Shown in pieces: positions 826 to 62,954 of a stretch of 64,000 bases of DNA (its first letter is position 1; each line of letters begins with the position of its first letter). The stretch is taken from NCBI RefSeq assembly GCF_009914755.1, contig NC_060933.1; one strand, given 5' to 3'. The notes beneath the pieces were generated by a model that was not told the DNA's origin, ran no database searches, and saw nothing but the letters and a program-made list of their open reading frames with translations. The DNA is from the human T2T-CHM13v2.0 reference genome, Homo sapiens. Both the position numbers and the translations under genes were made by a program.

Positions 826-1753
826 ATTCCGGAAGATTCCATTCCATTGCATTCCATTCCATTCCATTCCCCTTCACTCGCGTTGATTCCATTCCATTCC
901 ATTCTATTCCATTCCATTCCCTTCCTTTCCGTTCCATTCCATTCCATTCCATTCCATTCCCCTGCACTCGCGTTGATTCCATTCCATTCCATTCTATTCC
1001 ATTCCATTCCCTTCCTTTCCGTTCCATTCCATTCCATTCCATTCCGTTCCGTTCCATTCCATTCCATTCCATTCTATTCTGGTTAATTCCATTCCATTCC
1101 ATTCGATTGCAATCGAGTTGATTCCATTCCATTCCATTCCATTCCATTCCATTCCATTCCATTCCATTCCTTTCCTTTCCATTACGGATGATTCCATTCC
1201 ATTGCATTCCATTCCATTCCATTCCCCTGTACTCGGGTTGATTCCATTCTATTCCATTCCAATCCATGCCATTCCACTCGTGTTGATTCCATTCTTTCCA
1301 TTCCATTCAAGTTGAATCCATTCCATTGCATTCCATTCCATTCGATTCCATTCGATTGCACTCGGTTTGATTCCATTCCATTGCATTCCATTCCATTCCA
1401 TTCCATTCCATTCCGTTCCATTCCATTCCATTACATTCGGATTGATTCTATTCAATTCCCTTACACTCCATTACATTCCATTCCATTCGGGTAGTTTCCA
1501 TTCCATTCCATTCCATTCCTCTCCATTCCATTGCACTCGGGTTGATTCCATTCCATTGCATTCCATTCGATACCATTCAATTCCATTCCGTTCCATTCCA
1601 TTCCATTACATTCGGATTGATTCTATTCAACTCCCTTACACTCCATTACATTCGATTCCATTCGGGTTGTTCCATTCCATTCCATTCCATTCCTCTCCAT
1701 TCCATTGCACTCGGGTTGATTCCATTCCATTCCATTCCATTCCGGAAGATTCC
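826..1753 (-). promoter_or_regulatory. Two perfect heat-shock-element matches (826-840, 1739-1753)
   Basis: attccggaagattcc, the reverse complement of gGAAtcTTCcgGAAt. Confidence 0.55.
876..1040 (-). repeat. 90-bp tandem duplication
   Basis: actcgcgttgattccattccattccattctattccattccattcccttcctttccgttcc at 876 and 966. Confidence 0.88.
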
Positions 1754-2329
1754 ATTCCATTGCATTCCATTAAATTCCATTCCCCTGTACTCGCGTTGAT
1801 TCCATTCCATTCCATTCCATTCCTTTGCATTCCATTGCATTCCATTGCATTCCATTCCCCTGCACTCAGGTTGATTCCATTCCATTCCATTCCATTCCAT
1901 TCCATTCTATTCACGTTAATTCCATTCCACTCCATTCCATTACATTCCATTGCAATCGACTTGATTCCATTCCATTCCATTCCATTCCATTCCATTCCAT
2001 TCCATTCCCTTCCATTCCACTCTGGTTGATTCCATTCCTTTCCATTCTACTCGATTGCATTCCCTTCTATTCCACTCGGATTGATTCCATTCCATTCCGT
2101 TCCATTCCATTCCATTTCGTTCCATTCCATTCTATTCCATTCCATTCCATTCCATTCCTTTCCATTCCATTCCGTTCCATTCCATTCCATTCCATTCCAT
2201 TTCTTTGCATTCCATTCTATTCCATACCATTCCATTCCATTCCGTTCCATGCCATTCCACTCGGGTTGATTCCATTGCTTTCCATTCCATTTGGGTTGAA
2301 TCCATTCCATTCCATTCCATTCCATTCCA

Positions 2330-5300
2330 TTCCATTCCGTTCCATTCCATTCCATTACATTCGTATTGATTGTATTCAATTCCCTTACACTCCATTACAT
2401 TCCATTCCATTCGGGTTGTTTCCATTCCATTCCATTCCATTCCACTCCATTCCATTGCAGTCGGGTTGATTCCATTCCATTCCATTCCATTCCCTTCCAT
2501 TCCATTTCGTTCCATTCCATTCTATTCCATACCATTCCATTCCATTCCATTCCATTCCATTCCATTCCATTCCATTCCATTCCATGCCATTCCACTCGGG
2601 TTGATTCCTTTCCATTCCATTCCATTCGGGTTGAAACCATTCCATTCCATTCAATTCCATTCCATTTCGGATGATTGCATTCCATTGCCTTCCATTCAAT
2701 TGCATTCCCCTGCACCCGGGTTGATTCCATTCAATTCCATTCCATTCCATTCCGTTCCATTCCATTCCATACCATTCCATTCCATTCCATTCCATTCTAT
2801 TTGGGTTAATTCCATTCCATTCCATTCCATTCCATTCAGTTTCATTGCAATCGGGTTGATTCCATTCCGTTCCATTCCATTGCATTCCATTCCATTCCAT
2901 TCCATTCCATTCCATTCCATTCCATTCCATTCAACTCGGGTTGATTCCATTCCTTTCCATTCCATTCGGGGTGAAGCCTTTCCATTCCATTCCATTCCTT
3001 TCGATTCCATTCCATTGCACTCGGGTTGATCCCATTCCTTTGCATTCCATTCCATTCCATTCCATTCCATTCCATTCCATTCCGTTCCATTCAATTCCAT
3101 TACGTTCGGATTGATTCTATTCAATTCCCTTACAATCCACCACATTCCTTTCCATTCGGGTTGTTTCCATTCCTTTCCATTCCATTCAATTCCATTCCAT
3201 TCCATTCCATTCCGTATGATTCCATTCCATTGCATTCTATTCCATTCCATTCCCCTGCACTCGGGTGGATTCCATTCTATTCCATTCCATTCCATTCCAT
3301 TCCATTCCATTCCATTCCATTCCATTGAAATCGAGTTGATTCCATTCCATTCCATTCCATTCAATTCCATTCCATTCCATTCTATTCTGGTTAATTCCAT
3401 TCCATTCCATTCCATTCCCTTCCATTCCATTCCATTCTATTCCATTCCATTCCATTCTATTAGGGTTAATTCCATTCCATTCCATTCCATTCCATTCCAT
3501 TCCATTCCATTCCATTCCATTCCTTTGCAATCGAGTTTATTCCATTCCATTCCATTCCATTCCATTCCATTCAATTCCATTGAACTCGGGTTGATTCCAT
3601 TCCATTCCATGCCATTCCATTTCATTCCAATCCATTGCCTTCCATTCCATTCCATTCCTCTGCACTCGGGTTGATTCCATTCCTTTCCATTCCATTCGAT
3701 TCCATTCCATGCCATTCCACTCGGGTTGATTCCATTACTTTCCATTCCATTCGAGTTGAATCCATTCCATTCGATTCCATTCCATTCGATTCCATTCCAT
3801 TGCTCACGGGTTCATTCCATTCCATTCCATTCCATTCCATTCTATTCCATTTCATTCCATTTCGTTCCATTCCATTCTCTTCCGTACCATTCCATTCCAT
3901 TCCATTCCACTCCATTCCATGCCATTCCACTCGGGTTTATTCCATTCCTTTCCATTCCATTCGGGTTGAATTCATTCCATTCCATTCCATTCCATTCCAT
4001 TCCATTCTATTCCATTGCACTCGGGTTGATTCCATTCCATTCCATTACATTCCACTCCATTCCATTGCACTCGGGTTGATTCCATTCCTTTCCATTCCAT
4101 TCCAGTTGAACCCATTCCATTCTATTCCATTCCATTCCATTCCATTCCATTTCATTCCTTTGCACACGGGTTCATTCCATTCCATTCCATTCCATTCCAT
4201 TCCATTCCATTTCGTTCCATTCCATTCTATTCCTTACCATTCCATTCCATTCCATTCCCTTCCATGCCATTTCACTCGGGTTTATTCCATTCCTTTCCAT
4301 TCCATTCGGGTTGAATCCATTCCATTCCATTCCATTCCATTCCATTCCATTCCATTCCATTCCATTGAACTCGGGTTGATTCCATTCCATTCCATGCCAT
4401 TCCATTTCATTCCATTCCATTCCATTCCGTTCCATTCCATTCCATTCCTTTCCGTTCAATTCCATTACATTCGGATTGATTCTTTTTAATTCCCTTACAC
4501 TCCATTACATTCCATTCCATTCGGGTAGTTTCCATTCCATTCCATTCCATTCCTCTGTATTCTATTGCACTCGGGTTGATTGATTCCATTCCATTGCATT
4601 CCATTCCATTCAGGATGATTCCATTCCATTGCATTCCATTCCATTCCATTCCCCTGCACTCGTGTTGATTCCATTCCTTTCCATTCCATTCCATTCCGTT
4701 CCATTCCATTCCATTACATTCGTACTGATTGTACTCAATTCCCTTACACTCCATTACATTCCATTCCATTCGGGTTGTTTCCATTCCATTACATTCCATT
4801 CTACTCCATTCCATTGCACTCAGGTTGATTCCATTCCATTCCATTCCATTCCATTCCATTTCGTTCCATTCCATTCTATTCCGTACCATTCCATTCCATT
4901 CCATTCCATTCCATGCCATTCCACTCAGGTTTATTACATTCCTTTCCATTCCATTCGGGTTGAATCCATTCCATTCCATTCCATTCCATTCCATTCCATT
5001 CCTTTGCACTCGGGTTGATTCCATTCCATTCCCTGCCATTCCATTTCATTCCATTCCATTCCATTCCATTCCATTCCATTCCATTCCATTCCATTCCGTT
5101 CCATTCCATTCCATTACATTCGGATTGATTGTATTCAATTCCCTTACACTCCATTACATTCCATTCCATTCGGGTTGTTTCCGTTCCATTACATTCCATT
5201 CCACTCCATTCCATTGCACTCAGGTTGATTCCATTCCATTCCATTCCATTCCATTCCATTCCATTTCGTTCCATTCCATTCTATTCCGTACCATTCCATT

Positions 5301-8300
5301 CCATTCCATTCCATTCCATTCCATGCCATTCCACTCGGGTTGATTCCATTCCTTTCCATTCCATTCGGATTGAATCCATTCCATTCCATTCCATTGCATT
5401 CCGTTCCATTCCATTCCCCTGCAATCGGGTGGATTCCATTCTATTCCATTCCATTCCATTCATTCCATTCCATTCCATTCCATTTCGTTCCATTCCATTC
5501 TATTCCCTACCTTTCCATTCCATTCCATTCCATTCCATTCCATTCCATGCCATGCCATTCCACTCGAGTTGATTCCATTCCTTTCCATTCCATTCTAGTT
5601 GAATCCATTCCATTGCATTCCATTCCATTCGATTCCATTCAATTGCACACGGGTTCATTCCATTCCATTCCATTCCATTCCATTCCATTCCATTCCATTC
5701 CATTTCGTTCCATTCCATTCTATTCCGTACCATTCCCTTCCATTCCATTCCATTCCACTCCATTCCATGCCATTCCACTCGGGTTTATTCCATTCCTTTC
5801 CATTCCATTCGGGTTGAATCCATTCTATTCGGGTTGAATCCATTCCATTCCATTCCATTCCATTCCATTCCATTCCATGCCATTCCACTCGGGTTGATTC
5901 CATTCCTTTCCATTCCATTCGAGTTGAACCCATTCCATTCCATTCCATTCCATTCCATTCCATTCCATTCCATTGCTCACGGGTTCATTCCATCCAATTC
6001 CATTCCATTCCATTCCATTCCATTCCATTTCGTTCCATTCCATTCTACTCCGTACCATTGCATTCCATTCCATTCCCTTCCATGCCATTTCACTCGGGTT
6101 TATTCCTTTCCTTTCCATTCTATTCGGGTTGAATCCATTCCATTCCATTCCATTGCATTCCATTCCATTCCATTCCCCTGCAATCGGGTGGATTCCATTC
6201 TATTCCATTCCATTCCATTCCATTCCATTCCGTTCCATTCCATTCCATTACATTCGTATTGATTGTATTCAATTCCCTTACACTCCATTACATTCCATTC
6301 CATTCGGGTTGTTTCCATTCCATTCCATTCCATTCCACTCCATTCCATTGCAGTCGGGTTGATTCCATTCCATTCCATTCCATTCCCTTCCATTCCATTT
6401 CGTTCCATTCCATTCTATTCCATACCATTCCATTCCATTCCATTCCATTCCATTCCATTCCATTCCATGCCATTCCACTCGGGTTGATTCCTTTCCATTC
6501 CATTCCATTCGGGTTGAAACCATTCCATTCCATTCAATTCCATTCCATTTCGGATGATTGCATTCCATTGCCTTCCATTCAATTGCATTCCCCTGCACCC
6601 GGGTTGATTCCATTCAATTCCATTCCATTCCATTCCGTTCCATTCCATTCCATACCATTCCATTCCATTCCATTCCATTCCATTCTATTTGGGTTAATTC
6701 CATTCCATTCCATTCCATTCCATTCAGTTTCATTGCAATCGGGTTGATTCCATTCCGTTCCATTCCATTGCATTCCATTCCATTCCATTCCATTCCATTC
6801 CATTCCATTCCATTCAACTCGGGTTGATTCCATTCCTTTCCATTCCATTCGGGGTGAAGCCTTTCCATTCCATTCCTTTCCTTTCGATTCCATTCCATTG
6901 CACTCGGGTTGATCCCATTCCTTTGCATTCCATTCCATTCCATTCCATTCCATTCCATTCCGTTCCATTCAATTCCATTACATTCGGATTGATTCTATTC
7001 AATTCCCTTACAATCCATCACATTCCTTTCCATTCGGGTTGTTTCCATTCCTTTCCATTCCATTCAATTCCATTCCATTCCATTCCATTCCGTATGATTC
7101 CATTCCATTGCATTCTATTCCATTCCATTCCCCTGCACTCGGGTGGATTCCATTCTATTCCATTCCATTCCATTCCATTCCATTCCATTCCATTCCATTC
7201 CATTGAAATCGAGTTGATTCCATTCCATTCCATTCCATTCAATTCCATTCCATTCCATTCTATTCGGGTTAATTCCATTCCATTCCATTCCATTCCCTTC
7301 CATTCCATTCCATTCTATTCCATTCCATTCCATTCTATTAGGGTTAATTCCATTCCATTCCATTCCATTCCATTCCATTCCATTCCATTCCATTCCTTTG
7401 CAATCGAGTTTATTCCATTCCATTCCATTCCATTCCATTCCATTCAATTCCATTGAACTCGGGTTGATTCCATTCCATTCCATGCCATTCCATTTCATTC
7501 CAATCCATTGCCTTCCATTCCATTCCATTCCTCTGCACTCGGGTTGATTCCATTCCTTTCCATTCCATTCGATTCCATTCCATGCCATTCCACTCGGGTT
7601 GATTCCATTTCTTTCCATTCCATTCGAGTTGAATCCATTCCATTCGATTCCATTCCATTCGATTCCATTCCATTGCTCACGGGTTCATTCCATTCCATTC
7701 CATTCCATTCCATTCTATTCCATTTCATTCCATTTCGTTCCATTCCATTCTCTTCCGTACCATTCCATTCCATTCCATTGCACTCCATTCCATGCCATTC
7801 CACTCGGGTTTATTCCATTCCTTTCCATTCCATTCGGGTTGAATTCATTCCATTCCATTCCATTCCATTCTATTCCATTGCACTCGGGTTGATTCCATTC
7901 CATTCCATTCCATTCCACTCCATTCCATTGCACTCGGGTTGATTCCATTCCTTTCCATTCCATTCCAGTTGAACCCATTCCATTCCATTCCATTCCATTC
8001 CATTCCATTCCATTCCATTTCGTTCCATTCCATTCTATTCCTTACCATTCCATTCCATTCCATTCCCTTCCATGCCATTTCACTCGGGTTTATTCCATTC
8101 CTTTCCATTCCATTCGGGTTGAATCCATTCCATTCCATTCCATTCCATTCCATTCCATTCCATTCCATTCCATTGAACTCGGGTTGATTCCATTCCATTC
8201 CATGCCATTCCATTTCATTCCATTCCATTCCATTCCGTTCCATTCCATTCCATTCCTTTCCATTCAATTCCATTACATTCGGATTGATTCTTTTTAATTC

Positions 8301-9660
8301 CCTTACACTCCATTACATTCCATTCCATTCGGGTAGTTTCCATTCCATTCCATTCCATTCCTCTGTATTCTATTGCACTCGGGTTGATTGATTCCATTCC
8401 ATTGCATTCCATTCCATTCAGGATGATTCCATTCCATTGCATTCCATTCCATTCCATTCCCCTGCACTCGTGTTGATTCCATTCCTTTCCATTCCATTCC
8501 ATTCCGTTCCATTCCATTCCATTACATTCGTACTGATTGTACTCAATTCCCTTACACTCCATTACATTCCATTCCATTCGGGTTGTTTCCATTCCATTAC
8601 ATTCCATTCTACTCCATTCCATTGCACTCAGGTTGATTCCATTCCATTCCATTCCATTCCATTCCATTTCGTTCCATTCCATTCTATTCCGTACCATTCC
8701 ATTCCATTCCATTCCATTCCATGCCATTCCACTCAGGTTTATTACATTCCTTTCCATTCCATTCGGGTTGAATCCATTCCATTCCATTCCATTCCATTCC
8801 ATTCCATTCCATTCCTTTGCACTCGGGTTGATTCCATTCCATTCCCTGCCATTCCATTTCATTCCATTCCATTCCATTCCATTCCATTCCATTCCATTCC
8901 ATTCCGTTCCATTCCATTCCATTACATTCGGATTGATTGTATTCAATTCCCTTACACTCCATTACATTCCATTCCATTCGGGTTGTTTCCGTTCCATTAC
9001 ATTCCATTCCACTCCATTCCATTGCACTCAGGTTGATTCCATTCCATTCCATTCCATTCCATTCCATTCCATTCCATTCCATTTCGTTCCATTCCATTCT
9101 ATTCCGTACCATTCCATTCCATTCCATTCCATTCCATTCCATGCCATTCCACTCGGGTTGATTCCATTCCTTTCCATTCCATTCGGGTTGAATCCATTCC
9201 ATTCCATTCCATTGCATTCCGTTCCATTCCATTCCCCTGCAATCGGGTGGATTCCATTCTATTCCATTCCATGCCATTCATTCCATTCCATTCCATTCCA
9301 TTTCGTTCCATTCCATTCTATTCCCTACCTTTCCATTCCATTCCATTCCATTCCATTCCATTCCATGCCATGCCATTCCACTCGAGTTGATTCCATTCCT
9401 TTCCATTCCATTCTAGTTGAATCCATTCCATTGCATTCCATTCCATTCGATTCCATTCAATTGCACACGGGTTCATTCCATTCCATTCCATTCCATTCCA
9501 TTCCATTCCATTCCATTCCATTTCGTTCCATTCCATTCCATTCCATTCCATTCCCTTCCATTCCATTCCATTCCACTCCATTCCATGCCATTCCACTCGG
9601 GTTTATTCCATTCCTTTCCATTCCATTCGGGTTGAATCCATTCTATTCGGGTTGAATCCA
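2330..9660 (-). repeat. ~3.85-kb tandem duplication (copy 1 ~2330-6225, copy 2 ~6225-9660, incomplete)
   Basis: Rare variants recur in order: tcgtattg 2361/6254, ttgaaacc 2631/6514, gtgaagcc 2971/6854, tcctctgtat 4551/8359, ttccctacc 5503/9321 (offsets 3893 falling to ~3810). Confidence 0.9.
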
Positions 9661-9835
9661 ATCCATTCCATTCCATTCCATTCCATTCCATTCCATTCCA
9701 TTCCATTGCACTAGGTTTGATTCCATTCTGCTGCATTCCATTCCATTCCATTCCGTTCCATTCCATTCCTTTACATTCGGATTGATTGTATTCAATTCCC
9801 TTACACTCCATTACATTCCATTCCATTCGGGTTGT

Positions 9836-9877
9836 TTCCATTCCATTCCATTCCGTGTGCAATGGAATGGAATGGAA
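9836..9877. other. Strand-switch (inversion) junction 1, CATTC->GGAAT; perfect 17-bp inverted repeat with 8-nt loop
   Basis: ttccattccattccatt(9836-9852)-ccgtgtgc-aatggaatggaatggaa(9861-9877). The CC at 9853-9854 is shared by attCC (left) and aacCCgtgtgc (right; intact homologues at ~12281 and ~17588). ORF 9786..9995 switches from IPFHS to MEWNG here. Confidence 0.96.
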
Positions 9878-10631
9878 TGGAATGGAATGGAATGGAATGG
9901 GTTCAACTAGAATGGAATGGAAAGGAATGGAATCAACCCGAGTGGAATGGCATGGAATGGAATGGAATGGAATGGAATGGAAAGCAATGGAATGAAATGG
10001 AATGGAAGGGAATGGATTGAAATGGAATGGAATGGAATGGAATCAACCCGAGTGCAATGTAATGGAATTGAATGGAATGGAATGGAATGCAATGGAATGA
10101 ATTCAACCCGAATGGAATGGAAAGGAATGGAATAAACCCGAGTGGAATGGCATGGAATGGAGTGGAATGGAATGGAATGGAATACTACGGAAGAGAATGG
10201 AATGGAACGAAATGGAATGGAATGGAATGGAATGGAATGGAATGGAATGAACAAGTGAGCAATTGAATGGAATCGAATGGAATAGAATGGAATGGAATGG
10301 ATTCAACTCGAATGGAATGGAAAGGAATGGAATCAACCCGAGTGGAATGGCATGGAATGGAATGGAATGGAATGGAACGGAATGGAATGGAATCAACTCG
10401 ATTGCAAAGGAATGTAATGGAATGGAATGGAACGGAATTAACGCAAATAGAATGGAATGGAAAGGAATGGAACGGAATGGAATGGAAAGAAATGGAATGG
10501 AATCAATCTGAGTGCAGGGGAATGCAATGGAATGGAATGCAATGGAATGGAATGGAATGGAATGCAATGGAATCACCTCGATTGCAATGGGATGGAATGG
10601 AATGGAATGGAATGGAAGGGAATGGAATGGA

Positions 10632-13600
10632 ATGGAATTAACCTGAACAGAATGGAATGGAATGGTATGGAATGGAATGGAATGGAATGGAATGGAATGC
10701 AATGGAATGGAATCAATCAACCCGAGTGCAATAGAATGCAGTGGAATGGAATGGAATGGAATGGAATGGAATGGAATGGAATGGAATGAAATGGAATGGC
10801 AGGGAATGGAATGGAATCAACCCGAGTGCAAAGGAATGGAATGGAATGGAATGGAATGGAATGGATTCAACCCGAATGGAATGGAAAGGAATGGAATAAA
10901 CCTGAGTGGAATCGCATGGAATGGAATGGAATGGAATGGAATGGAATGGAATGGTACGGAATAGAATGGAATGGAAAGTAATGGAATGGAATGGAATGGA
11001 ATGGAATGGAATCAACCTGAGTGCAATGGAATGGAGTGGAATGGAATGTAATGGAATGGAAACAACCCGAATGTAATGGAATGTAATGGAGTGTAAGGGA
11101 ATTGAATACAATCAATCCGAATGTAATGGAATGGAATGGAACGGAATGGAATGGAATGGAATGCAGTGGAATGGAATCAAACCTAGTGCAATGGAATGGA
11201 ATGGAATGGAATGGAATGAAATGGAATGGAATGGAATGGAATGGAATGGAATGGATTGGATTCAACCCAAATGGAATGGAAAGCAATGGAATCAACCCGA
11301 GTGGAATGGCATGGAATGGAATGGAATGGAATGGAATGGAATGGAATGGTACAGAATAGAATGGAATGGAATGAAATGGAATGGAATGGAATGGAATGGA
11401 ATGGAATGGAACGGAATGGAATGGAATCAACTCGATTGCAATGGAATGTAATGGAATGGAATGGAATGGAATTAACGCGAATAGAATGGAATGGAATGTA
11501 ATGGAACGGAATGGAATGGAATGGGATGGAATGGAATCAATCTGAGTGCAGGGGAATGGAATGGAATGGAATGCAATGGAATGGAATGGAATGGAATGGA
11601 ATGCAATGGAATCAACTAGATTGCAATGGGATGGAATGGAATGGAATGGAATGGAAGGGAATGGAATGGAATGGAATTAACCTGAACAGAATGGAATGGA
11701 ATGGAATGGAACGGAATGGAAGGGAATGGAATGGAATGGAATTAAGCTGAAGAGAATGGAATGGAATGGAATGGAACGGAATGGAATGGAATGGAATGGA
11801 ATGGAATGCAATGGAATGGGATCAACCCGAGTGCAGGGGAATGGAATGGAATGGAATGCAATGGAATGGAATCAATCAACCCGAGTGCAATAGAATGCAG
11901 TGGAATGGAATGGAATGGAATGGAAAGTACCCGAATGGAAAGGAATGTAATGGAGTGTAAGGGAATTAAAAAGAATCAATCCGAATGTAATGGAATGGAA
12001 GGGAACGGAATGGAATGGAATGGAATGGAATGGAATGGAATGGAATGGAATGAAATGGAATGGCATGGAATGGAATGGAATCAACCTGAGTTCAATGGAA
12101 TGGAATGGAATGGAATGGAATGGATTCAACCCGAATGGAATGGAAAGGAATGGAATAAACCCGAGTGAAATGGCATGGAAGGGAATGGAATGGAATGGAA
12201 TGGTAAGGAATAGAATGGAATGGAACGAAATGGAATGGAATGGAATGGAATGGAATGGAATGGAATGGAATGGAATGAACCCGTGTGCAATGGAATGGAA
12301 TGGAATGGAATGGAATGGAATGGAATGGAATGGGTTCAACTAGAATGGAATGGAAAGGAATGGAATCAACCCGAGTGGAATGGCATGGAATGGAATGGAA
12401 AGGAATGGAATGGAATGGAATGGAATGGAATGGAATGGAATGAAATGGAATGGAAGGGAATGGATTGAAATGGAATGGAATGGAATGGAATCAACCCGAG
12501 TGCAATGTAATGGAATTGAATGGAATGGAATGGAATGGAATGGAATGAATTCAACCCGAATGGAATGGAAAGGAATGGAATAAACCCGAGTGGAATGGCA
12601 TGGAATGGATTGGAATGGAATGGAATGGAATACTACGGAAGAGAATGGAATGGAACGAAATGGAATGGAATGGAATGGAATGGAATGGAATGAACACGTG
12701 AGCAATGGAATGGAATCGAATGGAATGGAATGGAATGGAATGGATTCAACTCGAATGGAATGGAAAGGAATGGAATCAACCCGAGTGGAATGGCATGGAA
12801 TGGAATGGAATGCAATGGAATGGAATGGAATGGAATGGAATCAACTCGATTGCAAAGGAATGTAATGGAATGGAATGGAACGGAATTAACGCAAATAGAA
12901 TGGAATGGAAAGGAATGGAAAGGAATGGAATGGAAAGGAATGGAATGGAATCAATCTGAGTGCAGGGGAATGGAATGGAATGGAGTGCAATGGAATGGAA
13001 AGGAATGGAATGCAATGGAATCACCTCGATTGCAATGGGATGGAATGGAATGGAATGGAATGGAAGGGAATGGAATGGAATGGAATTAACCTGAACAGAA
13101 TGGAATGGAATGGTATGGAATGGAATGGAATGGAATGGAATGGAATGCAATGGAATGGAATCAATCAACGCGAGTGCAATAGAATGCAGTGGAATGGAAT
13201 GGAATGGAATGGAAAGTACCCGAATGGAATGGAATGGAATGGAGTGTAAGGGAATTAAAAAGACTCAATCCGAATGTAATGGAATGGAATTGAAAGGAAA
13301 GGAATGGAATGGAATGGAATGGAATGGAATGGAATGAAATGGAATGCCATAGAATGGAATGGAATCAACCCGAGCGCAATGGAATGGAATGGAATGGAAT
13401 GGATTCAACCCGAATGGAATGGAAAGGAATGGAATAAACCCGAGTGAAATGGCATGGAAGGGAATGGAATGGAATGGAATGGTACGGAGTAGAATGGAAT
13501 GGAACGAAATGGAATGGAATGGAATGGAATGGAATGGAATGGAATGGAATGGAATGAACCCGTGAGCAATGGAATGGAATGGAATGGAATGGAATGGAAT

Positions 13601-16600
13601 GGGTTCAATTCGAATGGAATGGAAAGGAATGGAATCAACCCGAGTGCAATGGCATGGAATGGAATGGAATGGAATGGAATGGAATGGAATGGATTCAACC
13701 CAAATGGAATGGAAAGGAATGGAATAAACCCGAGTGGAATGGCATGGAATGGAGTGGAATGGAATGGAATGGAATGGAATGGAATGGAATGGAATTAACC
13801 CTAATAGAATGGAATGGAATCGAATGGAATGGAATAGAAGGGAATGGAATGGAATGGAATGGAATGGAATTAACCCGAATAGAATGGAATGGAATGGAAT
13901 GGAATGGAATGGAATGGAATCAACTCGATTTCATTGGAATGGAATGGAATGGAATGGAATGGAAGGGAATGGAATGGAATGGAATGAAATTAACCTGAAT
14001 AGAATGGAATGGAATGGAATGGAATGGAATGGAATGGAATGGAATGGAATAGAATGTAATTCAACCGAGTGCAGGGGAATGGAATGGAATGGAATGCAAT
14101 GGAATGGAATCATACGGAATGGAATGGAATGGAATGGAATGCAATGGAATGGAATGGAATCAACCCGATTGCAATGGAATGGAGTGGAAAGGAATGTAAT
14201 GGAATGGAAACAACCCGAATGGAATGGAATGGAAAGGAATCGAATGGAATCAACCTGAGTGCAGGGGAATGGAATGGAATGGAATGCAATGGAATGGAAT
14301 GGAATGGAATGCAATGGAATGTAATGGAATGGAATGCAATGGAATCAACCCGAGTGCAATGTAATGGAATCGAATGGAATGGAATGGAATGGAATGGATT
14401 CAACCCGAATGGAATGGAAAGGAATGGAATAAACCCGAGTGGAATGGCATGGAGTGGAGTGGAATGGAATGGAATGGAATAGAATGGAATGGTACGGAAT
14501 AGAATGGAATGGAACGAAATGGAATGGAATGGAATGGAATGGAATGGAATGGAATGGAATGGAATCAAACCGAGTGCAGGGGAATGGAATGGAATTGAAG
14601 GCAATGGAATGGAATCATCCGGAATTGAATGGAATGGAATGGAATCAACTCGATTGCAATGGAATGGAATGGAATGGCATGGAATGGAATGGAATGGAAT
14701 GCAATGCAATGGAATGCAATGGAATGGAATGGAATTAACCCGAATAGAATGGAATGGAATGGAATGGAAGTAAATGGAATGGAAGGTAATGAACCCGAGT
14801 GCAGGGGAATGGAATGGAATGGAATGCAATGGAATGGAGTCATCCGGAATGGAACGGAAAGGAATGGAATGGAACCAACCCGTGTGCAATGGAATTGAAA
14901 GGAATGGAATGGAATGGAATGGAATGGAATGGAATGGAATGGATTCAACCCGAATGGAATGGAAAGGAAGGGAATCAACCCAAGTGGAATGGCATGGAAT
15001 GGAATGGATTGGAATGGAATGGAATGGAATGCTACCGAATAGAATGGAATGGAACGAAATGGAGTAGAATGGAATGGAATGGAATGCAATCAACCCGAGT
15101 GCAATGGAATGGAGTGGAATGGATTGGAATGGAATGGAAACAACCTGAATGGAATGGAATGAAATGGAGTGTAAGGGAATTGAATACAATCAAACCGAAT
15201 GTAATGGAATGGAATGGAACGGAATGGAATGGAATGGAATGGAATGGAATGCAGTGGAATGGAATCAAACCTAGTGCAATGGAATGGAATGGAATGGAAT
15301 GGAATGGAATGGAATGGAATCAATTCGATTGCAATGGAATGGAATTGAATGGAATGGAATGGAATGGAATGGGTTCAACTCGAATGGAATGGAAAGGAAT
15401 GGAATCAACCCGAGTGGAATGGCATGGAATGGAATGCAATGGAATGGAATGGAATGGAATGGAATGCAATGGAATGGAATGGAATGCAATGGAATCAACC
15501 CGAGTGCTATGTAATGGAATTGAATGGAATGGAATGGAATGGAATGGAATGGAATGGAATGGATTCAACCCGAATGGAATGGAAAGGAATGGAATAAACC
15601 CGAGTGGAATGGCATGGAATGGAGTGGAATGGAATGGAATGGAATGGAATGGAATGGAATGGTACGGAATAGAATGGAATGGAACGAAATGGAATGTAAT
15701 GTAATGGAATGGAATGGAATGGAATGAACCCGTGTGCAATGGAATGGAATGGAAAGGAATGGATTGGAATGGAATGAACCCGTGTGCAATGGAATGGAAT
15801 GGAATGGAATGGAATGGAATGGAATGGATTCAAGTCGAATGGAATGGAAAGGAATGGAATCAACCCGAGTGGAATGGCATGGAATGGAATGGAATGAAAT
15901 GGAATGGAATGGAATGGAATGGTAAGGAATAGAACGGAATGAAACGAAATGGAATGGAATGGAATGGAATGGAATGGAATGGAATGGAATGGAATGGAAT
16001 GGAAAGGAATTAACCTGAACAGAATGGAATGGAATGGAATGGAATGGAATGGAATGCAATGGAATGGAATCAATCAACCCGAGTGCAATAGAATGCAGTG
16101 GAATGGAATGGAATGGAATGGAATGGAATGGAATGGAATGGAATGAAATGGAATGGCAGGGAATGGAATGGAATCAACCCGAGTGCAAAGGAATGGAATG
16201 GAATGGAATGGAATGGATTCAACCCGAATGGAATGGAAAGGAATGGAATAAACCTGAGTGGAATCGCATGGAATGGAATGGAATGGAATGGAATGGAATG
16301 GTACGGAATAGAATGGAATGGAAAGTAATGGAATGGAATGGAATGGAATGGAATGGAATCAAACTGAGTGCAATGGAATGGAGTGGAATGGAATGTAATG
16401 GAATGGAAACAACCCGAATGTAATGGAATGTAATGGAGTGTAAGGGAATTGAATACAATCAATCCGAATGTAATGGAATGGAATGGAACGGAATGGAATG
16501 GAATGGAATGCAGTGGAATGGAATCAAACCTAGTGCAATGGAATGGAATGGAATGGAATGGAATGAAATGGAATGGAATGGAATGGAATGGAATGGAATG

Positions 16601-54000: not shown

Positions 54001-57000
54001 TTCTTTCCATTCCATTCAAGTTGAATTCATTCCATTGCATTCCATTCCATTCCATTCCCCTGCAGTCTGGTTGTTTCCATTCCATTCCATTCAATTCCGT
54101 TCCGTTCCATTCCATTCCATTCCATTCTATTCGGGTTAATTCCATTCCATTCCATTCCTTTCCATTCCATTCCATTCCAATCGAGTTGATTCCATTCCAT
54201 TCCATTCCATTCCATTCCACTCCATTCCAGTCCTTTCCATTCCATTCCACTCGGGTTGATTCCAATGTATTCCTTCCCATTCCATTCCATTCCATTGCAA
54301 TCGAGTTGAATCCATTGCTTTGCATTCCGTTCTATTCCATTCCATTCCGGATGATTCCATTCCATTGCATTCCATTCCATTCCATTCCCCTGCACTCGGG
54401 TTGATTCCATTCCATTCCACTCCATTCTGTTCCATTCCATTCCATTGCATTGTATTCGCGTTAATTCCATTCCATTCCATTCCATTCCATTCCATTCCAT
54501 TACAATCGAGTTAATTCCATTCCATTCCATTCCATTCCAGTCCTTTCCATTCCATTCCTCTCGGGTTGATTCCATTCTATTAGTTTCCATTCCATTCCAT
54601 TCCCTTCCATTCCACTCTGGTTGATTCCATTCCTTTCCATTCCACTCGAATACATTCCCTCCTATTCCACTCGGAACGATTCCATTCCATTCCACTCCAT
54701 TCCATTCCATTCTATTCCATTCCATTCCATTTCGTTCCATTACATTCTATTCCGTATCATTCCATTCCATTCCATTGCATTCCATTGCATTCCATTCCAT
54801 TCCATTGTACTCGGGTTGATTCAATTCCATTGCATTCCATTCCATTCCATTCCATTCCATTCTGTTGCATTCCATTCCATTACATTCGGATTGATTCTAT
54901 TCAACTCCCTTACTCTCCATTACATTCCATTCCATTCGGGTTGTTCCATTACATTCCATTCCATTCCACTCCATTCCATTGCACTCGGGTTGATTCCATT
55001 CCATTCCATTCCATTCCATTCCATTCCATTCCATTCCATTCCGGATGATTCCATTCCATTGCATTCCGTTCCATTACATTCCCCTGCACTCGCGTTGATT
55101 CCATTCCATTCCATTCCATTCCATTCAATTCCATTCCATTACAATTCGTTCCATTCCATTCTATTCCGTACCATTCCATTCCATTCCATTCCATACCATT
55201 CCATTCCATTCCATTCCATTCCATTCCGTTCCATTCCGTTCCATTCCATTCCATTCCATTCTATTCGAATTAATTCCATTCCATTTCATTCCATTCCATT
55301 CTATTCCATTCCATTGCAATCGAGTTGAATCCATTGCATTTCATTCAATTCCATTCCATTCCATTCCATTCCGGAAGACTCCATTCCATTGCATTCCATT
55401 CCATTCCATTCCCCTGCACTCGCGTTGATTCCATTCCATTCCATTCCATTCCATTCCATTCCATTCCATTCCATTCCATTCCATTCCATTCCGTTCCGTA
55501 CCATTCTATTCTATTCGGGTTAATTCCATTCCATTCCATTCGATTGCAATCTCGTTGATTCCATTCCATTCCATTCCATTCCATTCCATTCCTTTCCATT
55601 CCATTACGGATGATTCCATTCCATTGCATTCCATTCCATTCCATTCCCCTGTACTCGGGTTGATTCCATTCCATTCCATTCCAATCCATGCCATTCCACT
55701 CGTGTTGATTCCATTCTTTCCATTCCATTCAAGTTGAATCCATTCCATTGCATTCCATTCCATTCGATTCCATTCGATTGCACTCGGGTTGATTCCATTC
55801 CATTGCATTCCATTCCATTCAATTCCATTCCATTCCATTCCATTCCGTTCCATACCATTCCATTACATTCGGATTGATTCTATTCAATTCCCTTACACTC
55901 CATTACATTCCATTCCATTCGGGTAGTTTCCATTCCATTCCATTCCATTCCTCTCCATTCCATTGCACTCGGGTTGATTCCATTCCATTGCATTCCATTC
56001 CATTCCATTCAATTCCATTGCGTTCCATTCCATTCCATTACATTCGGATTGATTCTATTCAACTCCCTTACTCTCCATTACATTCCATTCCATTCGGGTT
56101 GTTCCATTCCATTCCATTCCATTCCACTCCATTCCATTGCACTCGGGTTGATTCCATTCCATTCCATTCCATTCCATTCCATTCCGGAAGATTCCATTCC
56201 ATTACATTCCATTCCATTCCATTCCCCTGCACTCGTGTTGATTCCATTGCATTCCATTCTATTCCATTCCATTCCCTTCCTTTCCGTTCCACTCCATTCC
56301 ATTCCATTCCATTCCATTCCGTTCCGTTCCATTCCATTCCATTCCATTCTATTCGGGTTAATTCCATTCCATTCCATTCGATTGCAATCGAGTTGATTCC
56401 ATTCCATTCCATTCCATTCCATTCCATTCCATTCCATTCCATTCCTTTCCATTCCATTACGGATGATTCCATTCCATTGCATTCCATTCCATTCCATTCC
56501 CCTGTACTCGGGTTGATTCCATTCCATTCCATTCCAATCCATGGCATTCCACTCGTGTTGATTCCATTCTTTCCATTCCATTCAAGTTGAATCCATTCCA
56601 TTGCATTCCATTCCATTCGATTCCATTCGATTGCACTCGGGTTGATTCCATTCCATTGCATTCCATTCCAGTCGATTCCATTCCATTCCATTCCATTCCA
56701 TTCCATTCCGTTCCATTCCATTCCATTACATTCGGATTGATTCTATTCAATTCCGTTACACTCCATTACATTCCATTCCATTCGGGTAGTTTCCATTCCA
56801 TTCCATTCCATTCCTCTCCATTCCATTGCACTCGGGTTGATTCCATTCCATTCCATTCCATTCAATTCCATTCCGTTCCATTCCATTCCATTACATTCGG
56901 ATTGATTCTATTCAACTCCCTTACTCTCCATTACATTCCATTCCATTCGGGTTGTTCCATTCCATTCCATTCCATTCCACTCCATTCCATTGCACTCGGG

Positions 57001-60000
57001 TTTATTCCATTCCATTCCATTCCATTCCATTCCATTCCGTTCCGTTCCATTCCATTCCATTCCATTCTATTCGGGTTAATTCCATTCCATTCCATTCCAT
57101 TCCATTCCAATCGAGTTGATTCCATTCCATTCCATTCCATTCCATTCCACTCCATTCCAGTCCTTTCCATTCCATTCCACTCGGGTTGATTCCAATGTAT
57201 TCCTTTCCATTCCATTTCATTCCATTGCAATCGAGTTGATTCCATTGTTTTGCATTCCATTCCTTTCCATTCCATTCCGGATGATTACATTCCATTGCAT
57301 TCCATTCCATTCCATTCTCCTGCACTCGGGTTGATTCCATTCCATTCCACTCCATTCCGTTCCATTCCATTCCATTCCATTGTATTCGGGTTAATTCCAT
57401 TCCATTGCATTCCATTCCATTCCATTCCATTACAATCGAGTTGATTCCATTCCATTCCATTCCATTCCAGTCCTTTCCATTCCATTCCACTTGGGTTGAT
57501 TCCATTCTATTAGTTTCCATTCCATTCCATTCCCTTCCATTCCACTCTGGTTGATACCTTTAATTTCCATTCCACTCGAATACATTCCCTCCTATTCCAC
57601 TCGGAACGATTCCATTCCATTCCATTCCATTCCATTCCATTCCATTCCATTCCATTCCATTGTACTCGGGTTGATTCAATTCCATTGCATTCCATTCCAT
57701 TCCATTCCATTCCATTCCGTTGCATTCCATTCCATTACATTCGGATTGATTCTATTCAACTCCCTTACTCTCCATTACATTCCATTCCATTCGGGTTGTT
57801 CCATTCCATTCCATTCCATTCCACTCCATTCCATTGCACTCGGGTTGATTCCATTCCATTCCATTCCATTCCATTCCATTCCGGATGATTCCATTCCATT
57901 GCATTCCGTTCCATTACATTCCGCTGCACTCGCGTTGATTCCATTCCATTCTATTCCATTCCATTCAATTCCATTCCATTACAATTCGTTCCATTCCATT
58001 CTATTCCGTACCATTCCATTCCATTCCATACCATTCCATTCCATTCCATTCCATTCCATTCCGTTCCATTCCGTTCCATTCCATTCCATTCCATTCTATT
58101 CGGATTAATTCCATTCCATTCCATTCCATTCCATTCCATTCTATTCCATTCCATTGCAATCGAGTTGAATCCATTGCATTTCATTCCATTCCATTCCATT
58201 CCATTCCATTCCGGAAGATTCCATTCCATTGCATTCCATTCCATTCCATTCCCCTGCACTCGCGTTGATTCCATTCCATTCCATTCCATTCCATTCCATT
58301 CCGTTCCGTTCCATTCCATTCCATTCCATTCCATTCCATTCCGTTCCGTTCCATTCCATTCCATTCCATTCTATTCGGGTTAATTCCATTCCATTCCATT
58401 CGATTGCAATCGAGTTGATTCCATTCCATTCCATTCCATTCCATTCCATTCCATTCCTTTCCATTCCATTACGGATGATTCCATTCCATTGCATTCCATT
58501 CCATTCCATTCCCCTGTACTCGGGTTGATTCCATTCCATTCCATTCCAATCCATGCCATTCCACTCGTATTGATTCCATTCTTTCCATTCCATTCAAGTT
58601 GAATCCATTCCATTGCATTCCATTCCATTCGATTCCATTCGATTGCACTCGGGTTGATTCCATTCCATGGCATTCCATTCCATTCCATTCCATTCCATTC
58701 CATTCCGTTCCATTCCATTACTTTCGGATTGATTCTATTCAATTCCCTTACACTCCATTACATTCCATTCCATTGGGGTAGTTTCCATTCCATTCCATTC
58801 CATTCCTCTCCATTCCATTGCACTCGGGTTGATTCCATTCCATAGCATTCCATTCCATTCCATTCAATTCCATTCCGTTCCATTCCATTCCATTACATTC
58901 GGATTGATTCTATTCAACTCCCTTACTCTCCATTACATTCCATTCCATTCGGGTTGTTCCATTCCATTCCATTCCATTCCACTCCATTCCATTGCACTCG
59001 GGTTGATTCCATTCCATTCCATTCCATTCCATTCCATTCCATTCCATTCCATTGCATTCCATTCCATTCCATTCCCCTGCACTCGCGTTGATTCCATTCC
59101 ATTCCATTCCATTCTATTCCATTCCATTCCATTCCATTCCATTCCATTCCATTCCTTTCCGTTCCATTCCATTCCATTCCATTCCATTCCAATCCATTCC
59201 ATTCCGTTCTGTTCCGTTCCATTCCATTCCATTCCATTCTATTCGGTTTAATTCCATTCCATTCCATTCGATTGCAATCGAGTTGATTCCATTCCATTCC
59301 ATTCCATTCCATTCCATTCCATTCCTTTCCATTCCATTACGGATGATTCCATTCCATTGCATTCCATTCCATTCCATTCCCCTGTACTCGGGTTGATTCC
59401 ATTCCATTCCATTCCAATCCATGCCATTCCACTCGTGTTGATTCCATTCTTTCCATTCCATTCAAGTTGAATTCATTCCATTGCATTCCATTCCATTCCA
59501 TTCCCCTGCAGTCTGGTTGTTTCCATTCCATGCCATTCCATTCCGTTCCGTTCCATTCCATTCCATTCCATTCTATTCGGGTTAATTCCATTCCATTCCA
59601 TTCCTTTCCATTCCATTCCATTCCAATCGAGTTGATTCCATTCCATTCCATTCCATTCCATTCCACTCCATTCCAGTCCTTTCCATTCCATTCCACTCGG
59701 GTTGATTCCAATGTATTCCTTCCCATTCCATTCCATTCCATTGCAATCGAGTTGAATCCATTGCTTTGCATTCCGTTCTATTCCATTCCATTCCGGATGA
59801 TTCCATTCCATTGCATTCCATTCCATTCCATTCCCCTGCACTCGGGTTGATTCCATTCCATTCCACTCCATTCCCTTCCATTCCATTCCATTGCATTGTA
59901 TTCGCGTTAATTCCATTCCATTCCATTCCATTCCATTCCATTCCATTACAATCGAGTTAATTCCATTCCATTCCATTCCATTCCAGTCCTTTCCATTCCA

Positions 60001-62954
60001 TTCCTCTCGGGTTGATTCCATTCTATTAGTTTCCATTCCATTCCATTCCCTTCCATTCCACTCTGGTTGATTCCATTCCTTTCCATTCCACTCGAATACA
60101 TTCCCTCCTATTCCACTCGGAACGATTCCATTCCATTGCACTCCATTCCATTCCATTCCACTCCATTCCATTCCATTTCGTTCCATTACATTCTATTCCG
60201 TATCATTCCATTCCATTCCATTCCATTCCATTCCATTCCATTGCATTGTACTCGGGTTGATTCAATTCCATTGCATTCCATTCCATTCCATTCCATTCCA
60301 TTCTGTTGCATTCCATTCCATTACATTCGGATTGATTCTATTCAACTCCCTTACTCTCCATTACATTCCATTCCATTCGGGTTGTTCCATTACATTCCAT
60401 TCCATTCCACTCCATTCCATTGCACTCGGGTTGATTCCATTCCATTCCATTCCATTCCATTCCATTCCATTCCGGATGATTCCATTCCATTGCATTCCGT
60501 TCCATTACATTCCCCTGCACTCCCTTTGATTCCATTCCATTCCATTCCATTCCATTCAATTCCATTCCATTACAATTCGTTCCATTCCATTCTATTCCGT
60601 ACCATTCCATTCCATTCCATTCCATACCATTCCATTCCATTCCATTCCATTCCATTTCGTTCCATTCCGTTCCATTCCATTCCATTCCATTCTATTCGAA
60701 TTAATTCCATTCCATTTCATTCCATTCCATTCTATTCCATTCCATTGCAATCGAGTTGAATCCATTGCATTTCATTCAATTCCATTCCATTCCATTCCAT
60801 TCCGGAAGACTCCATTCCATTGCATTCCATTCCATTCCATTCCCCTGCACTCGCGTTGATTCCATTCCATTCCATTCCATTCCATTCCATTCCATTCCAT
60901 TCCGTTCCGTACCATTCCATTCTATTCGGGTTAATTCCATTCCATTCCATTCGATTGCAATCGAGTTGATTCCATTCCATTCCATTCCATTCCATTGCAT
61001 TCCATTCCATTCCTTTCCATTCCATTACGGATGATTCCATTCCATTGCATTCCATTCCATTCCATTCCCCTGTACTCGGGTTGATTCCATTCCATTCCAT
61101 TCCAATCCATGCCATTCCACTCGTGTTGATTCCATTCTTTCCATTCCATTCAAGTTGAATCCATTCCATTGCATTCCATTCCATTCGATTCCATTCGATT
61201 GCACTCGGGTTGATTCCATTCCATTGCATTCCATTCCATTCCATTCCATTCCATTCCATTCCATTCCATTCCGTTCCATACCATTCCATTACATTCGGAT
61301 TGATTCTATTCAATTCCCTTACACTCCATTACATTCCATTCCATTTGGGTAGTTTCCATTCCATTCCATTCCATTCCTCTCCATTCCATTGCACTCGGGT
61401 TGATTCCATTCCATTGCATTCCATTCCATTCCATTCAATTCCATTGCGTTCCATTCCATTCCATTACATTCGGATTGATTCTATTCAACTCCCTTACTCT
61501 CCATTACATTCCATTCCATTCGGGTTGTTCCATTCCATTCCATTCCATTCCACTCCATTCCATTGCACTCGGGTTGATTCCATTCCATTCCATTCCATTC
61601 CATTCCATTCCCTTCCTTTCCGTTCCACTCCATTCCATTCCATTCCATTCCATTCCATTCCATTCCGTTCCGTTCCATTCCATTCCATTCCATTCTATTC
61701 GGGTTAATTCCATTCCATTCCATTCGATTGCAATCGAGTTGATTCCATTCCATTCCATTCCATTCCATTCCATTCCATTCCTTTCCATTCCATTACGGAT
61801 GATTCCATTCCATTGCATTCCATTCCATTCCATTCCCCTATACTCGGGTTGATTCCATTCCATTCCATTCCAATCCATGCCATTCCACTCGTGTTGATTC
61901 CATTCTTTCCATTCCATTCAAGTTGAATCCATTCCATTGCATTCCATTCCATTCGATTCCATTCGATTGCACTCGGGTTGATTCCATTCCATTGCATTCC
62001 ATTCCATTCCATTCCGTTCCATTCCATTCCATTCCGTTCCATTCCATTTCATTACATTCAGATTGATTCTATTCAATTCCCTTACACTCCATTATATTCC
62101 AATCCATTCTGGTTGTCTCCATTCCATTCCATTCCATTTCACTCCATTCCATTGCTCTCGGGTTGATTCCATTACATTCCATTCCATTGCATTCCATTCC
62201 ATTCCATTCCGGATGATTCCATTCCATTGCATTCCATTCCATTCCATTCCCCTGCACTCGGGTTGATTCCATTCCATTCCATTACATTACATTCCGTTCT
62301 ATTCCATTCCATTCCATTCGGATTGATTCTATTCAATTCCCTTACACTCCATTACATTCCATTCCATTCGGGTAGTTTCCATTCCATTCCATTCCATTCC
62401 TCTCCATTCCATTGCACTCGGGTTGATTCAATTCCATTCCATTCCGTTCCATTCCATTACATTACATTACATTACATTCCGTTCCATTGTACTCGGGTTG
62501 ATTCCATTCCATTGCATTCCATTCCATTCCATTCCATTCCATTCCGTTCCATTCCATTACATTCGGATTGATTCTGTTCAACTCCCTTACTCTCCATTAC
62601 ATTCCATTCCATTCGGGTTGTTCCATTCCATTCCATTCCATTCCACTCCATTCCATTGCGCTTGGGTTGATTCCATTCCATTCCATTCCATTCCATTCCA
62701 TTCCAATTCTTTCCATTCCATTCTATTCCGTACCATTCCATTCCATTCCATACAATTCCATTCCATTCCTTTCCACTCCGTTCCGTTCCGTTCCGTTCTG
62801 TTCCATTCCATTCCATTCCATTCCATTCTATTCGGTTTAATTCCATTCCATTCCATTCCATTCCATTCCATTCTATTCCATTCCATTGCAATCGAGTTGA
62901 ATCCATTGCATTCCATTCCATTCCATTCCATTCCATTCCATTCCGGAAGATTCC
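48091..62954 (-). promoter_or_regulatory. Series of 7 perfect heat-shock-element matches (attccggaagattcc) in block 3
   Basis: Starts at 48091, 49504, 50336, 52742, 56181, 58208 and 62940; degenerate copies (attccggaagactcc) at 55368 and 60799. Confidence 0.6.
50870..61680 (-). repeat. ~5.45-kb tandem duplication (copy 1 ~50870-56330, copy 2 ~56330-61680), each a dimer of ~2.5+2.9 kb sub-units
   Basis: ttccgttacac 51290/56751, ctggttgatacctttaatttcc 52081/57547, tgcagtctggttg 54061/59507, ccggaagact 55371/60802, aattccattgcgtt 56011/61437 (offsets 5426-5466). Confidence 0.92.

What the first reader, a model, noticed from the sequence alone, without database searches (positions are those of the whole stretch)
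826..62954. A perfect canonical heat-shock element is built into one satellite dialect only
Seen: the variant GGAATCTTCCGGAAT is an exact three-unit inverted HSE (nGAAnnTTCnnGAAn), which plain (GGAAT)n cannot form because all its GAA units point the same way. I count 17 perfect copies: 826, 1739, 32719, 33572, 35410, 37812, 38845, 39923, 44117, 44955, 48091, 49504, 50336, 52742, 56181, 58208 and 62940, roughly one per 2 kb of domain B. I found none in ~26 kb of domain A (2.1-28.4 kb). Domain A has only the one-mismatch sister GGAATCATCCGGAAT (e.g. 14611, 19923). Known: HSF1 trimers bind such elements, and HSF1 drives Sat III transcription and nuclear stress bodies at 9q12. Inference: a single A>T change, spread by higher-order duplication, may have created an HSF1 landing array, dividing the satellite into responsive (B) and non-responsive (A) domains.
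Basis: partly seen in the sequence, partly recalled or inferred. Interest (0 to 1): 0.85.

Follow-up and report, generated by a model that had tools for sequence, protein, structure and literature searches.

The report
Heat-shock elements in chromosome 9 satellite
A one-letter variant of the chromosome 9 satellite repeat spells a perfect heat-shock element, occurs 12,700 times in the genome, and likely marks where the stress factor HSF1 binds best when nuclear stress bodies form; HSF1 motifs in this satellite are already reported, but we did not find this exact sequence in print.

Summary
It occurs 12,700 times genome-wide, 17% of all perfect cores, and appears confined to the chr9 HSat3B5 array. 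Dialect restriction holds in 20 other chr9 stretches: 100 HSEs in 150 B-like kb, 0 in 19 A-like kb. The T allele sits on one derived module haplotype (91 of 93), which supports a single A>T origin.

Corrections: B is the rule (about 75% of the sample) and A is a minority patchwork. The ATCC sister is mainly a B feature (28 of 30) and may itself bind HSF1. DYZ1 on Y reaches a similar HSE density with unrelated sequences, while six other HSat3 stretches have none. This matches the known primary stress-body sites. Franklin et al. already report HSF1 motifs and ChIP signal in HSat3 sub-regions. The exact k-mer, count and origin were not found in print. Binding was not tested here.

The parts
826..840 (-). 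Perfect three-unit HSE (GGAATCTTCCGGAAT)
1739..1753 (-). Perfect three-unit HSE
32719..32733 (+). Perfect three-unit HSE
33572..33586 (+). Perfect three-unit HSE
35410..35424 (+). Perfect three-unit HSE
37812..37826 (+). Perfect three-unit HSE
38845..38859 (+). Perfect three-unit HSE
39923..39937 (+). Perfect three-unit HSE
44117..44131 (+). Perfect three-unit HSE, in the typical module downstream of the CAACGCGAG spacer
44955..44969 (+). Perfect three-unit HSE
48091..48105 (-). Perfect three-unit HSE
49504..49518 (-). Perfect three-unit HSE
50336..50350 (-). Perfect three-unit HSE
52742..52756 (-). Perfect three-unit HSE, inside the first copy of a 5.45-kb tandem duplication
56181..56195 (-). 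Perfect three-unit HSE
58208..58222 (-). Perfect three-unit HSE, duplicate of the one at 52,742
62940..62954 (-). Perfect three-unit HSE
1..2070 (-). HSat3 dialect B, left part (2 HSEs, 2 exact ATCC sisters); boundary approximate
2070..28340 (.). HSat3 dialect A: no perfect HSE, 2 exact ATCC sisters, 6 CATAC forms; 3.85-kb and 5.3-kb duplications; boundaries approximate
28340..64000 (.). HSat3 dialect B, right part (15 HSEs, 26 exact ATCC sisters)
14611..14625 (+). One-mismatch sister GGAATCATCCGGAAT in domain A
19943..19957 (+).
9850..9864 (.). Strand switch (ATTCC to GGAAT) inside dialect A
45965..45976 (.). Strand switch (GGAAT to ATTCC) inside dialect B

Best explanation
The 15-mer is a perfect three-unit heat-shock element carried by the majority dialect of the chr9 HSat3B5 array, about one per 2.2 kb, and it is likely the strongest class of HSF1 site at 9q12. 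Shown: the motif, its count, its restriction to dialect B and its linkage to one module haplotype. Inferred origin: a CATCC pentamer, one change from the HSat3B spacer CAACC, gained an A>T change once on the CAACGCGAG haplotype, and satellite duplication and inversion copied it to about 12,700 places. Inferred function: on stress, HSF1 trimers would bind these sites preferentially, with weaker help from the ATCC sisters and plain GGAAT runs. The density over 27.6 Mb would nucleate the HSF1 focus and Sat III transcription. A-type patches are predicted to be local dips in HSF1 occupancy within one responsive array, not silent domains. Yq12 likely reached a similar HSE density with unrelated sequences. 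Selection is not needed to explain any of this.
For: Exact match to nGAAnnTTCnnGAAn with the preferred pyrimidine-purine step (CG) between TTC and GAA (preference from Feng et al. PMC8379338, passages). 12,700 copies against 3 for the reversed control. 89 copies in 20 chr9 stretches of 10 kb, 19 of 20 positive, extrapolating to 12,282 (bootstrap 9,384-15,180) over 27.6 Mb (array size). Two rare-flank subsets fall 44 of 44 and 12 of 12 on chr9. A classifier blind to the motif gives 100 HSEs in 150 B-like kb, 3 in 31 intermediate kb and 0 in 19 A-like kb. Haplotypes of 344 modules: C-A 211, G-A 40, G-T 91, C-T 2; chr17 and chr20 HSat3 carry the C spacer 17 of 17 times. No perfect HSE in 6 other HSat3 stretches (24 kb, 12.4 expected at chr9 density) or in 2 HSat2 stretches. 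3 in 4 kb of DYZ1, one of them with 4,895 copies. Chr9 and Y are the primary stress-body sites (Penin et al. PMC7889540, passages). HSF1 ChIP-seq follows motif density in HSat3 (Franklin et al., section 5).
Against: No binding data were analysed here. Position 7, the A>T site, has only modest base preference in Drosophila HSF sites with a relaxed middle pentamer, a class that makes up 33% of sites (Guertin et al. PMC3315474, section 9). The chr9 clone pHuR98 binds HSF1 in vitro although Jolly et al. describe its NGAAN units as non-canonical in arrangement (PMC2173303, section 8). An HSF1 DNA-binding domain was crystallised on head-to-tail Sat III (cited; original paper not seen). HT1080 cells form no chr9 focus although their 9q12 binds HSF1 in vitro, so sequence is not sufficient. 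The chr9 samples share large duplications and are not fully independent. The sample of other arrays is small.
Confidence: 0.62

Rival explanations
1. The whole C[A/T]TCC module is the landing site. ATCC and TTCC both bind HSF1 well, and the A>T change only tunes affinity. Dialect B is favoured because it holds many more intact modules of either kind.
For: ATCC outnumbers TTCC 20,563 to 12,700. The first 100 of 130 copies of a rare-flank ATCC subset are all on chr9, so ATCC may explain chr9 specificity equally well. Sites with at most one mismatch: 1.79 per kb in B against 0.41 in A. Position 7 is tolerant in Drosophila HSF sites.
Against: DYZ1, the other primary site, has perfect HSEs and no ATCC module in the 4 kb sampled. 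Franklin et al. see ChIP signal following HSF1 motif density in sub-regions, whereas exact ATCC does not track the dialect score across the chr9 sample (rho 0.03) and perfect HSEs do (rho -0.35).
Confidence: 0.22
2. HSF1 gathers on 9q12 through low-affinity binding to plain head-to-tail GGAAT units, array size, chromatin opening and condensation. The perfect HSEs are incidental.
For: GAA units at 10-bp spacing occur 64-67 times per kb in both dialects. pHuR98 binds HSF1 in vitro. Heat-induced reads map across the whole chr9 array (Rabeler et al. PMC11622622, passages). Cell-type differences exist.
Against: The 8-Mb chr15 array (size) has 37-41 such spaced units per kb and no perfect HSE in 12 kb sampled, and is not named as a primary site. 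ChIP signal is uneven and follows motifs. The strand around one HSE forms no notable hairpin (z +0.93), which does not favour a structure-based reading there.
Confidence: 0.1
3. One reading: A and B are separate functional domains, and A is neither bound nor transcribed on heat shock.
For: A has no perfect HSE over 26 kb here and none in 19 A-like kb elsewhere. Motif-poor sub-regions show less ChIP signal.
Against: A-like patches elsewhere are mostly 3-6 kb and interleaved with B, similar to or shorter than Sat III transcripts of 2-5 kb and more (Vourc'h et al. PMC9032817, passages). Upregulation is reported across the entire array, with the caveat of short-read multi-mapping.
Confidence: 0.06

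Closest known systems
HSF1 motif-dense sub-regions of HSat3 (Franklin et al., bioRxiv 10.1101/2024.10.22.616524, Fig. 2b)
   Same: HSF1 motifs are uneven inside HSat3 arrays, and heat-shock HSF1 ChIP-seq follows them (section 5 read).
   Different: The text read names no k-mer, count, allele pair, haplotype or chromosome restriction. The figure and supplements were not seen and may hold per-array values.
Perfect HSEs in the Yq12 DYZ1 repeat (Penin et al. 2021, PMC7889540)
   Same: Canonical HSEs interspersed in Sat III at a primary stress-body site; four reported per 3,564-bp unit. Three were found here in 4 kb.
   Different: The Y elements have unrelated sequences in a fixed 3.55-kb unit on one strand. 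The chr9 element is one 15-mer in an irregular, often inverted array.
Putative HSEs at 9q12 (Vourc'h et al. 2022 review, PMC9032817)
   Same: States that putative HSEs exist over Sat III stretches of 9q12.
   Different: Given as an unpublished observation, with the total number of sites called unknown. No sequence is given in the passages seen.
pHuR98 / D9Z3 binding by HSF1 (Jolly et al. 2002, PMC2173303)
   Same: Direct HSF1 binding to chr9 Sat III, competed by a consensus HSE.
   Different: The authors argued that the NGAAN arrangement is non-canonical and suggested DNA structure. The complete array holds thousands of canonical elements.
Canonical three-unit heat-shock element
   Same: Three alternating nGAAn pentamers with a pyrimidine-purine step in the tail-to-tail pair.
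   Different: It sits in constitutive heterochromatin at about one per 2.2 kb over megabases, with no annotated gene, and has a CpG at the dyad.

Membership tests
Canonical three-unit HSE | Three contiguous, alternating inverted nGAAn pentamers | tested here: met
   17 of 17 copies match GAAnnTTCnnGAA; definition
Canonical three-unit HSE | Pyrimidine-purine step between TTC and the following GAA | tested here: met
   The step is CG in all copies; preference stated
Canonical three-unit HSE | Bound by an HSF1 trimer, better than mismatched controls | not testable with these tools
   No ChIP reads or binding assay on hand; region-level support only
Canonical three-unit HSE | Drives heat-induced transcription nearby | not testable with these tools
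   Array-level induction is published; element-level not tested
HSat3B5 (chr9 pericentric array) | Location within hsat3_9_3(B5) on T2T-CHM13 chr9 | tested here: met
   Window is chr9:60.39-60.45 Mb, inside the B5 region shown at 52.7-73.0 Mb
HSat3B5 (chr9 pericentric array) | GGAAT pentamer-rich satellite with frequent strand switches | tested here: met
   56% exact pentamers; two switches in the window; over 200 breakpoints reported for this and the beta satellite arrays
HSat3B5 (chr9 pericentric array) | Assignment by the published subfamily k-mer sets, for dialects A and B separately | not tested
   The published k-mer sets were not obtained
Micro-inverted pentamer (GGAAT to ATTCC) origin | Abundant ATTCC middle unit as the parent form | tested here: not met
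   All non-C first-base forms total 424 against 12,700; haplotypes place CATCC as the parent

The most novel reading that the evidence does not exclude
One point mutation, amplified 12,700-fold, is the main cis reason that 9q12 is the primary nuclear stress body site. Yq12 converged on a similar HSE load with unrelated sequences, so two satellites hold roughly 40% of all perfect HSE cores in a male haploid assembly. The copy number of this 15-mer would then predict stress-body size and HSF1 titration across people and apes.
Probability: 0.35. Interest if true: 0.72.

Novelty: new member of a known kind. Interest (0 to 1): 0.45.

Why it matters
Why HSF1 picks 9q12 out of many GGAAT arrays was left open in 2002, when the repeat was judged non-canonical, and a 2022 review still called the number of sites unknown. 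A single 15-mer and its natural one-base sister give an alignment-free test in existing ChIP data (for example GSE209667, named) that avoids multi-mapping. It also gives a countable marker for variation between people. It shows how a neutral satellite variant can create about a sixth of a factor's perfect sites in the genome. The general picture, HSF1 motifs in parts of HSat3 with matching ChIP signal, is already in a preprint, which limits the surprise.

Tried and rejected
Chance: rejected, 17 against a shuffle maximum of 8, though copies are duplicates and not independent events. Assembly quirk of this window: rejected, the motif recurs in 19 of 20 stretches. Micro-inversion origin of the middle pentamer: not supported. 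Dialect A as an older layer: not supported. It shares no more informative 14-mers with chr17, chr20 or array-edge HSat3 than B does, and its duplications are as young as B's youngest (0.4% against 0.6%). Hairpin at the element: none of note. Dialects defined by inversions: rejected, both strand switches lie inside a dialect. A literal search of papers for the motif gave 842 papers holding a 10-mer; the 30 listed were unrelated by title, none of them held the 13-mer, and the rest were not seen. VAMPIRE uses HSE for human-specific expansion and is irrelevant. 10.64898/2026.02.12.705659, PMC13705371 and PMC13634412 showed nothing on HSE sequence in HSat3 in the passages seen. Of 18 stretches taken outside chr9 at recalled coordinates, 9 missed HSat2/3 and were left out of the satellite counts; one of these (chr13, non-satellite) held one perfect HSE. 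A full per-chromosome count was not possible because only the first 100 places of a search are listed. No ape genomes were on hand.
Full report
Observation. The window is HSat3 throughout, with ATTCC on + up to about 9,850, GGAAT on + to about 45,965 and ATTCC again to the end. All 17 listed positions carry GGAATCTTCCGGAAT, 8 on + and 9 on -. They are the only GAAnnTTCnnGAA matches; 100 shuffles give a mean of 2.9 and at most 8. The motif reads G-GAA-TC-TTC-CG-GAA-T, an exact three-unit HSE, with the pyrimidine-purine step that HSFs prefer between TTC and GAA (Feng et al., PMC8379338, passages).

The two dialects. The first principal component of informative 12-mers splits the window into A and B without using the motif as a label. 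Boundaries fall near 2,070 and 28,340, so neither strand switch marks a dialect edge. Among sites within two mismatches of the module, 0 of 19 between 2.1 and 28.7 kb carry T, against 20 of 73 elsewhere (Fisher p 0.0099). A is poor in the whole module, not only in the T allele: 2 of 30 exact ATCC copies lie in A, and sites with at most one HSE mismatch run at 0.41 per kb in A and 1.79 in B. A is built of 3.85-kb and 5.3-kb duplications about 0.4% diverged, so its 26 kb are far fewer independent bases.

Genome-wide count. The 15-mer occurs 12,700 times (6,460 + 6,240; reversed control 3) and the ATCC sister 20,563 times. Listings run in contig order, and both strands start at chr9:49 Mb, so chromosomes 1-8 hold none. 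Twenty 10-kb stretches across the chr9 array hold 89 copies, in 19 of 20 stretches; only the array-edge stretch has none. Scaled to 27.6 Mb (Altemose et al., 10.1101/2021.07.12.452052, passages) this gives 12,282 (bootstrap 9,384-15,180), which accounts for the total. Two rare-flank subsets, short enough to list whole, lie 44 of 44 and 12 of 12 on chr9 between 49.6 and 76.4 Mb. Many are copies of each other, so this is support and not proof. Perfect GAAnnTTCnnGAA cores number 76,189 genome-wide (reversed control 43,994), so this one 15-mer is 16.7% of them, or about 19% with its variants (extrapolated).

Replication of the dialect rule. A 12-mer classifier trained on the window, with motif-overlapping words removed, was applied to 200 1-kb bins of the chr9 sample. 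B-like bins (150) held 100 perfect HSEs, intermediate bins (31, about half from the array edge) held 3, and A-like bins (19) held none. So the rule holds, but B is the bulk of the array. A-like sequence appears there as patches of about 3-6 kb interleaved with B (L006, L008, L009, L013, L019). Stretches were limited to 10 kb, so longer A blocks like this window's cannot be counted.

Origin. The T allele sits at the same place in the same module as the A allele, after GCAAT and downstream of a CAAC[C/G]CGAGTGCAGG spacer. Of 344 modules matched in the window and the 20 stretches, 211 are C-A, 40 G-A, 91 G-T and 2 C-T. HSat3 from chr17 and chr20 has the C spacer in 17 of 17 cases, and domain A in 102 of 104. 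The simplest order is C-A, then G-A, then G-T: one A>T change on a derived background, with rare conversion or recurrence. CATCC differs from GGAAT at all five positions but from the spacer start CAACC at one, so the element is likely two steps from an ordinary HSat3B spacer. A micro-inversion route through ATTCC is not supported: all forms with another first base total 424. Spread by duplication is visible in the window, where 52,742 and 58,208 are copies within a 5.45-kb tandem pair. CpG decay at the dyad keeps the element perfect (6 of 103 HSEs in the sample). Nothing here shows selection.

Other arrays. Of 18 stretches taken outside chr9, 9 hit HSat2 or HSat3, judged by pentamer content. 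Six HSat3 stretches on chr14, 15, 17 and 20 (24 kb) have no perfect HSE, where chr9 density predicts 12.4; two HSat2 stretches on chr1 and 16 have none. One DYZ1 stretch has three, all unrelated to the chr9 15-mer. One of them occurs 4,895 times, and 99 of the first 100 listed are on chrY at about 3.55-kb spacing. If the other two are as well kept, Y holds about 14,700, and chr9 plus Y hold about 39% of perfect cores (an extrapolation). Chr9 and Y are the two primary stress-body sites (Penin et al., PMC7889540, passages).

Mechanism. I commit to this: the 15-mer is likely the strongest HSF1 site class at 9q12, and its density over megabases would nucleate the focus and Sat III transcription (0.62). 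The motif, counts, dialect rule and linkage are shown; binding and function are inferred. Against a clean switch: in Drosophila HSF sites a relaxed middle pentamer is common (33%), and positions 7 and 8 are then loosely held (Guertin et al., PMC3315474, section 9). The A>T change is at position 7, so ATCC may be a weaker true site. The clone pHuR98 binds HSF1 at four-fold higher protein amounts than a consensus HSE, although its units were judged non-canonical (Jolly et al., PMC2173303, section 8); its sequence was not seen. HT1080 cells lack a chr9 focus unless HSF1 is overexpressed, so chromatin or cofactors matter. Heat-induced reads map over the whole array (Rabeler et al., PMC11622622, passages), which argues against silent A domains, with a multi-mapping caveat. 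Whether methylation of the central CpG matters is untested; T is common at that position in genomic HSEs (listing), so tolerance is a reasonable guess.

What is known. Franklin et al. (bioRxiv 10.1101/2024.10.22.616524; section 5 and passages) report HSF1 motifs in sub-regions of HSat3 arrays with matching ChIP-seq enrichment. Vourc'h et al. (PMC9032817, passages) mention putative HSEs at 9q12 as unpublished and the site number as unknown. Penin et al. report four perfect HSEs per DYZ1 unit. Ten searches found no paper that names this 15-mer, its count, its chr9 restriction or its haplotype. The library lacks most subscription papers, and the figures and supplements of Franklin et al. were not seen and may bear on this.

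Verdict. The feature is real and reaches well beyond the window. It is a canonical HSE at a locus long known to bind HSF1, so it is a new member of a known kind. The base-level identity, the single origin and the natural TTCC/ATCC pair make an old question testable with existing reads. Interest 0.45; the bold reading has probability 0.35 and would merit 0.72.

Noticed in passing
window 9,850-9,864 and 45,965-45,976: Two strand switches, one inside dialect A and one inside dialect B. Undoing a single 36-kb inversion would join A to B at both ends, so two separate events (for example inverted duplications) look more likely.
   Followed up: partly
window 55,368 and 60,799 (-); 30,687 (+): T-allele modules broken in an outer unit (GGAGT first unit, copied by the 5.45-kb duplication; GTAAT third unit), leaving two-unit elements.
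   Followed up: partly
window 2,100-28,400 versus 28,800-64,000: CpG density is lower in A (19.7 per kb) than in B (25.8). TCCGGA sites, shared by both alleles of the module, run at 0.23 against 1.31 per kb, so a methylation-sensitive digest could separate the dialects (enzyme choice from general knowledge).
   Followed up: no
domain B and chr9 stretches L002-L020: A third common module allele, GGAATCATCCGTAAT, makes up 104 of 342 near-exact A-allele sites and has two HSE mismatches.
   Followed up: no
G000:C9, places listed: Rare variants recur in the same order at distant places (about 56.3-57.0 and 67.0-67.6 Mb; 57.5-57.7 and 68.1-68.3 Mb; 54.0 and 62.8 Mb), which points to megabase-scale duplications inside the chr9 array.
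   Followed up: no
L001 (chr9:49.10-49.11 Mb) and most of L002: The centromere-side edge of the array is a third dialect, neither A nor B, with no perfect HSE in L001. The first minus-strand copies are 126 kb apart there.
   Followed up: partly
whole genome: Perfect HSE cores are strand-biased (45,122 forward, 31,067 reverse). The excess of about 14,000 fits the single-orientation DYZ1 array on Y.
   Followed up: partly
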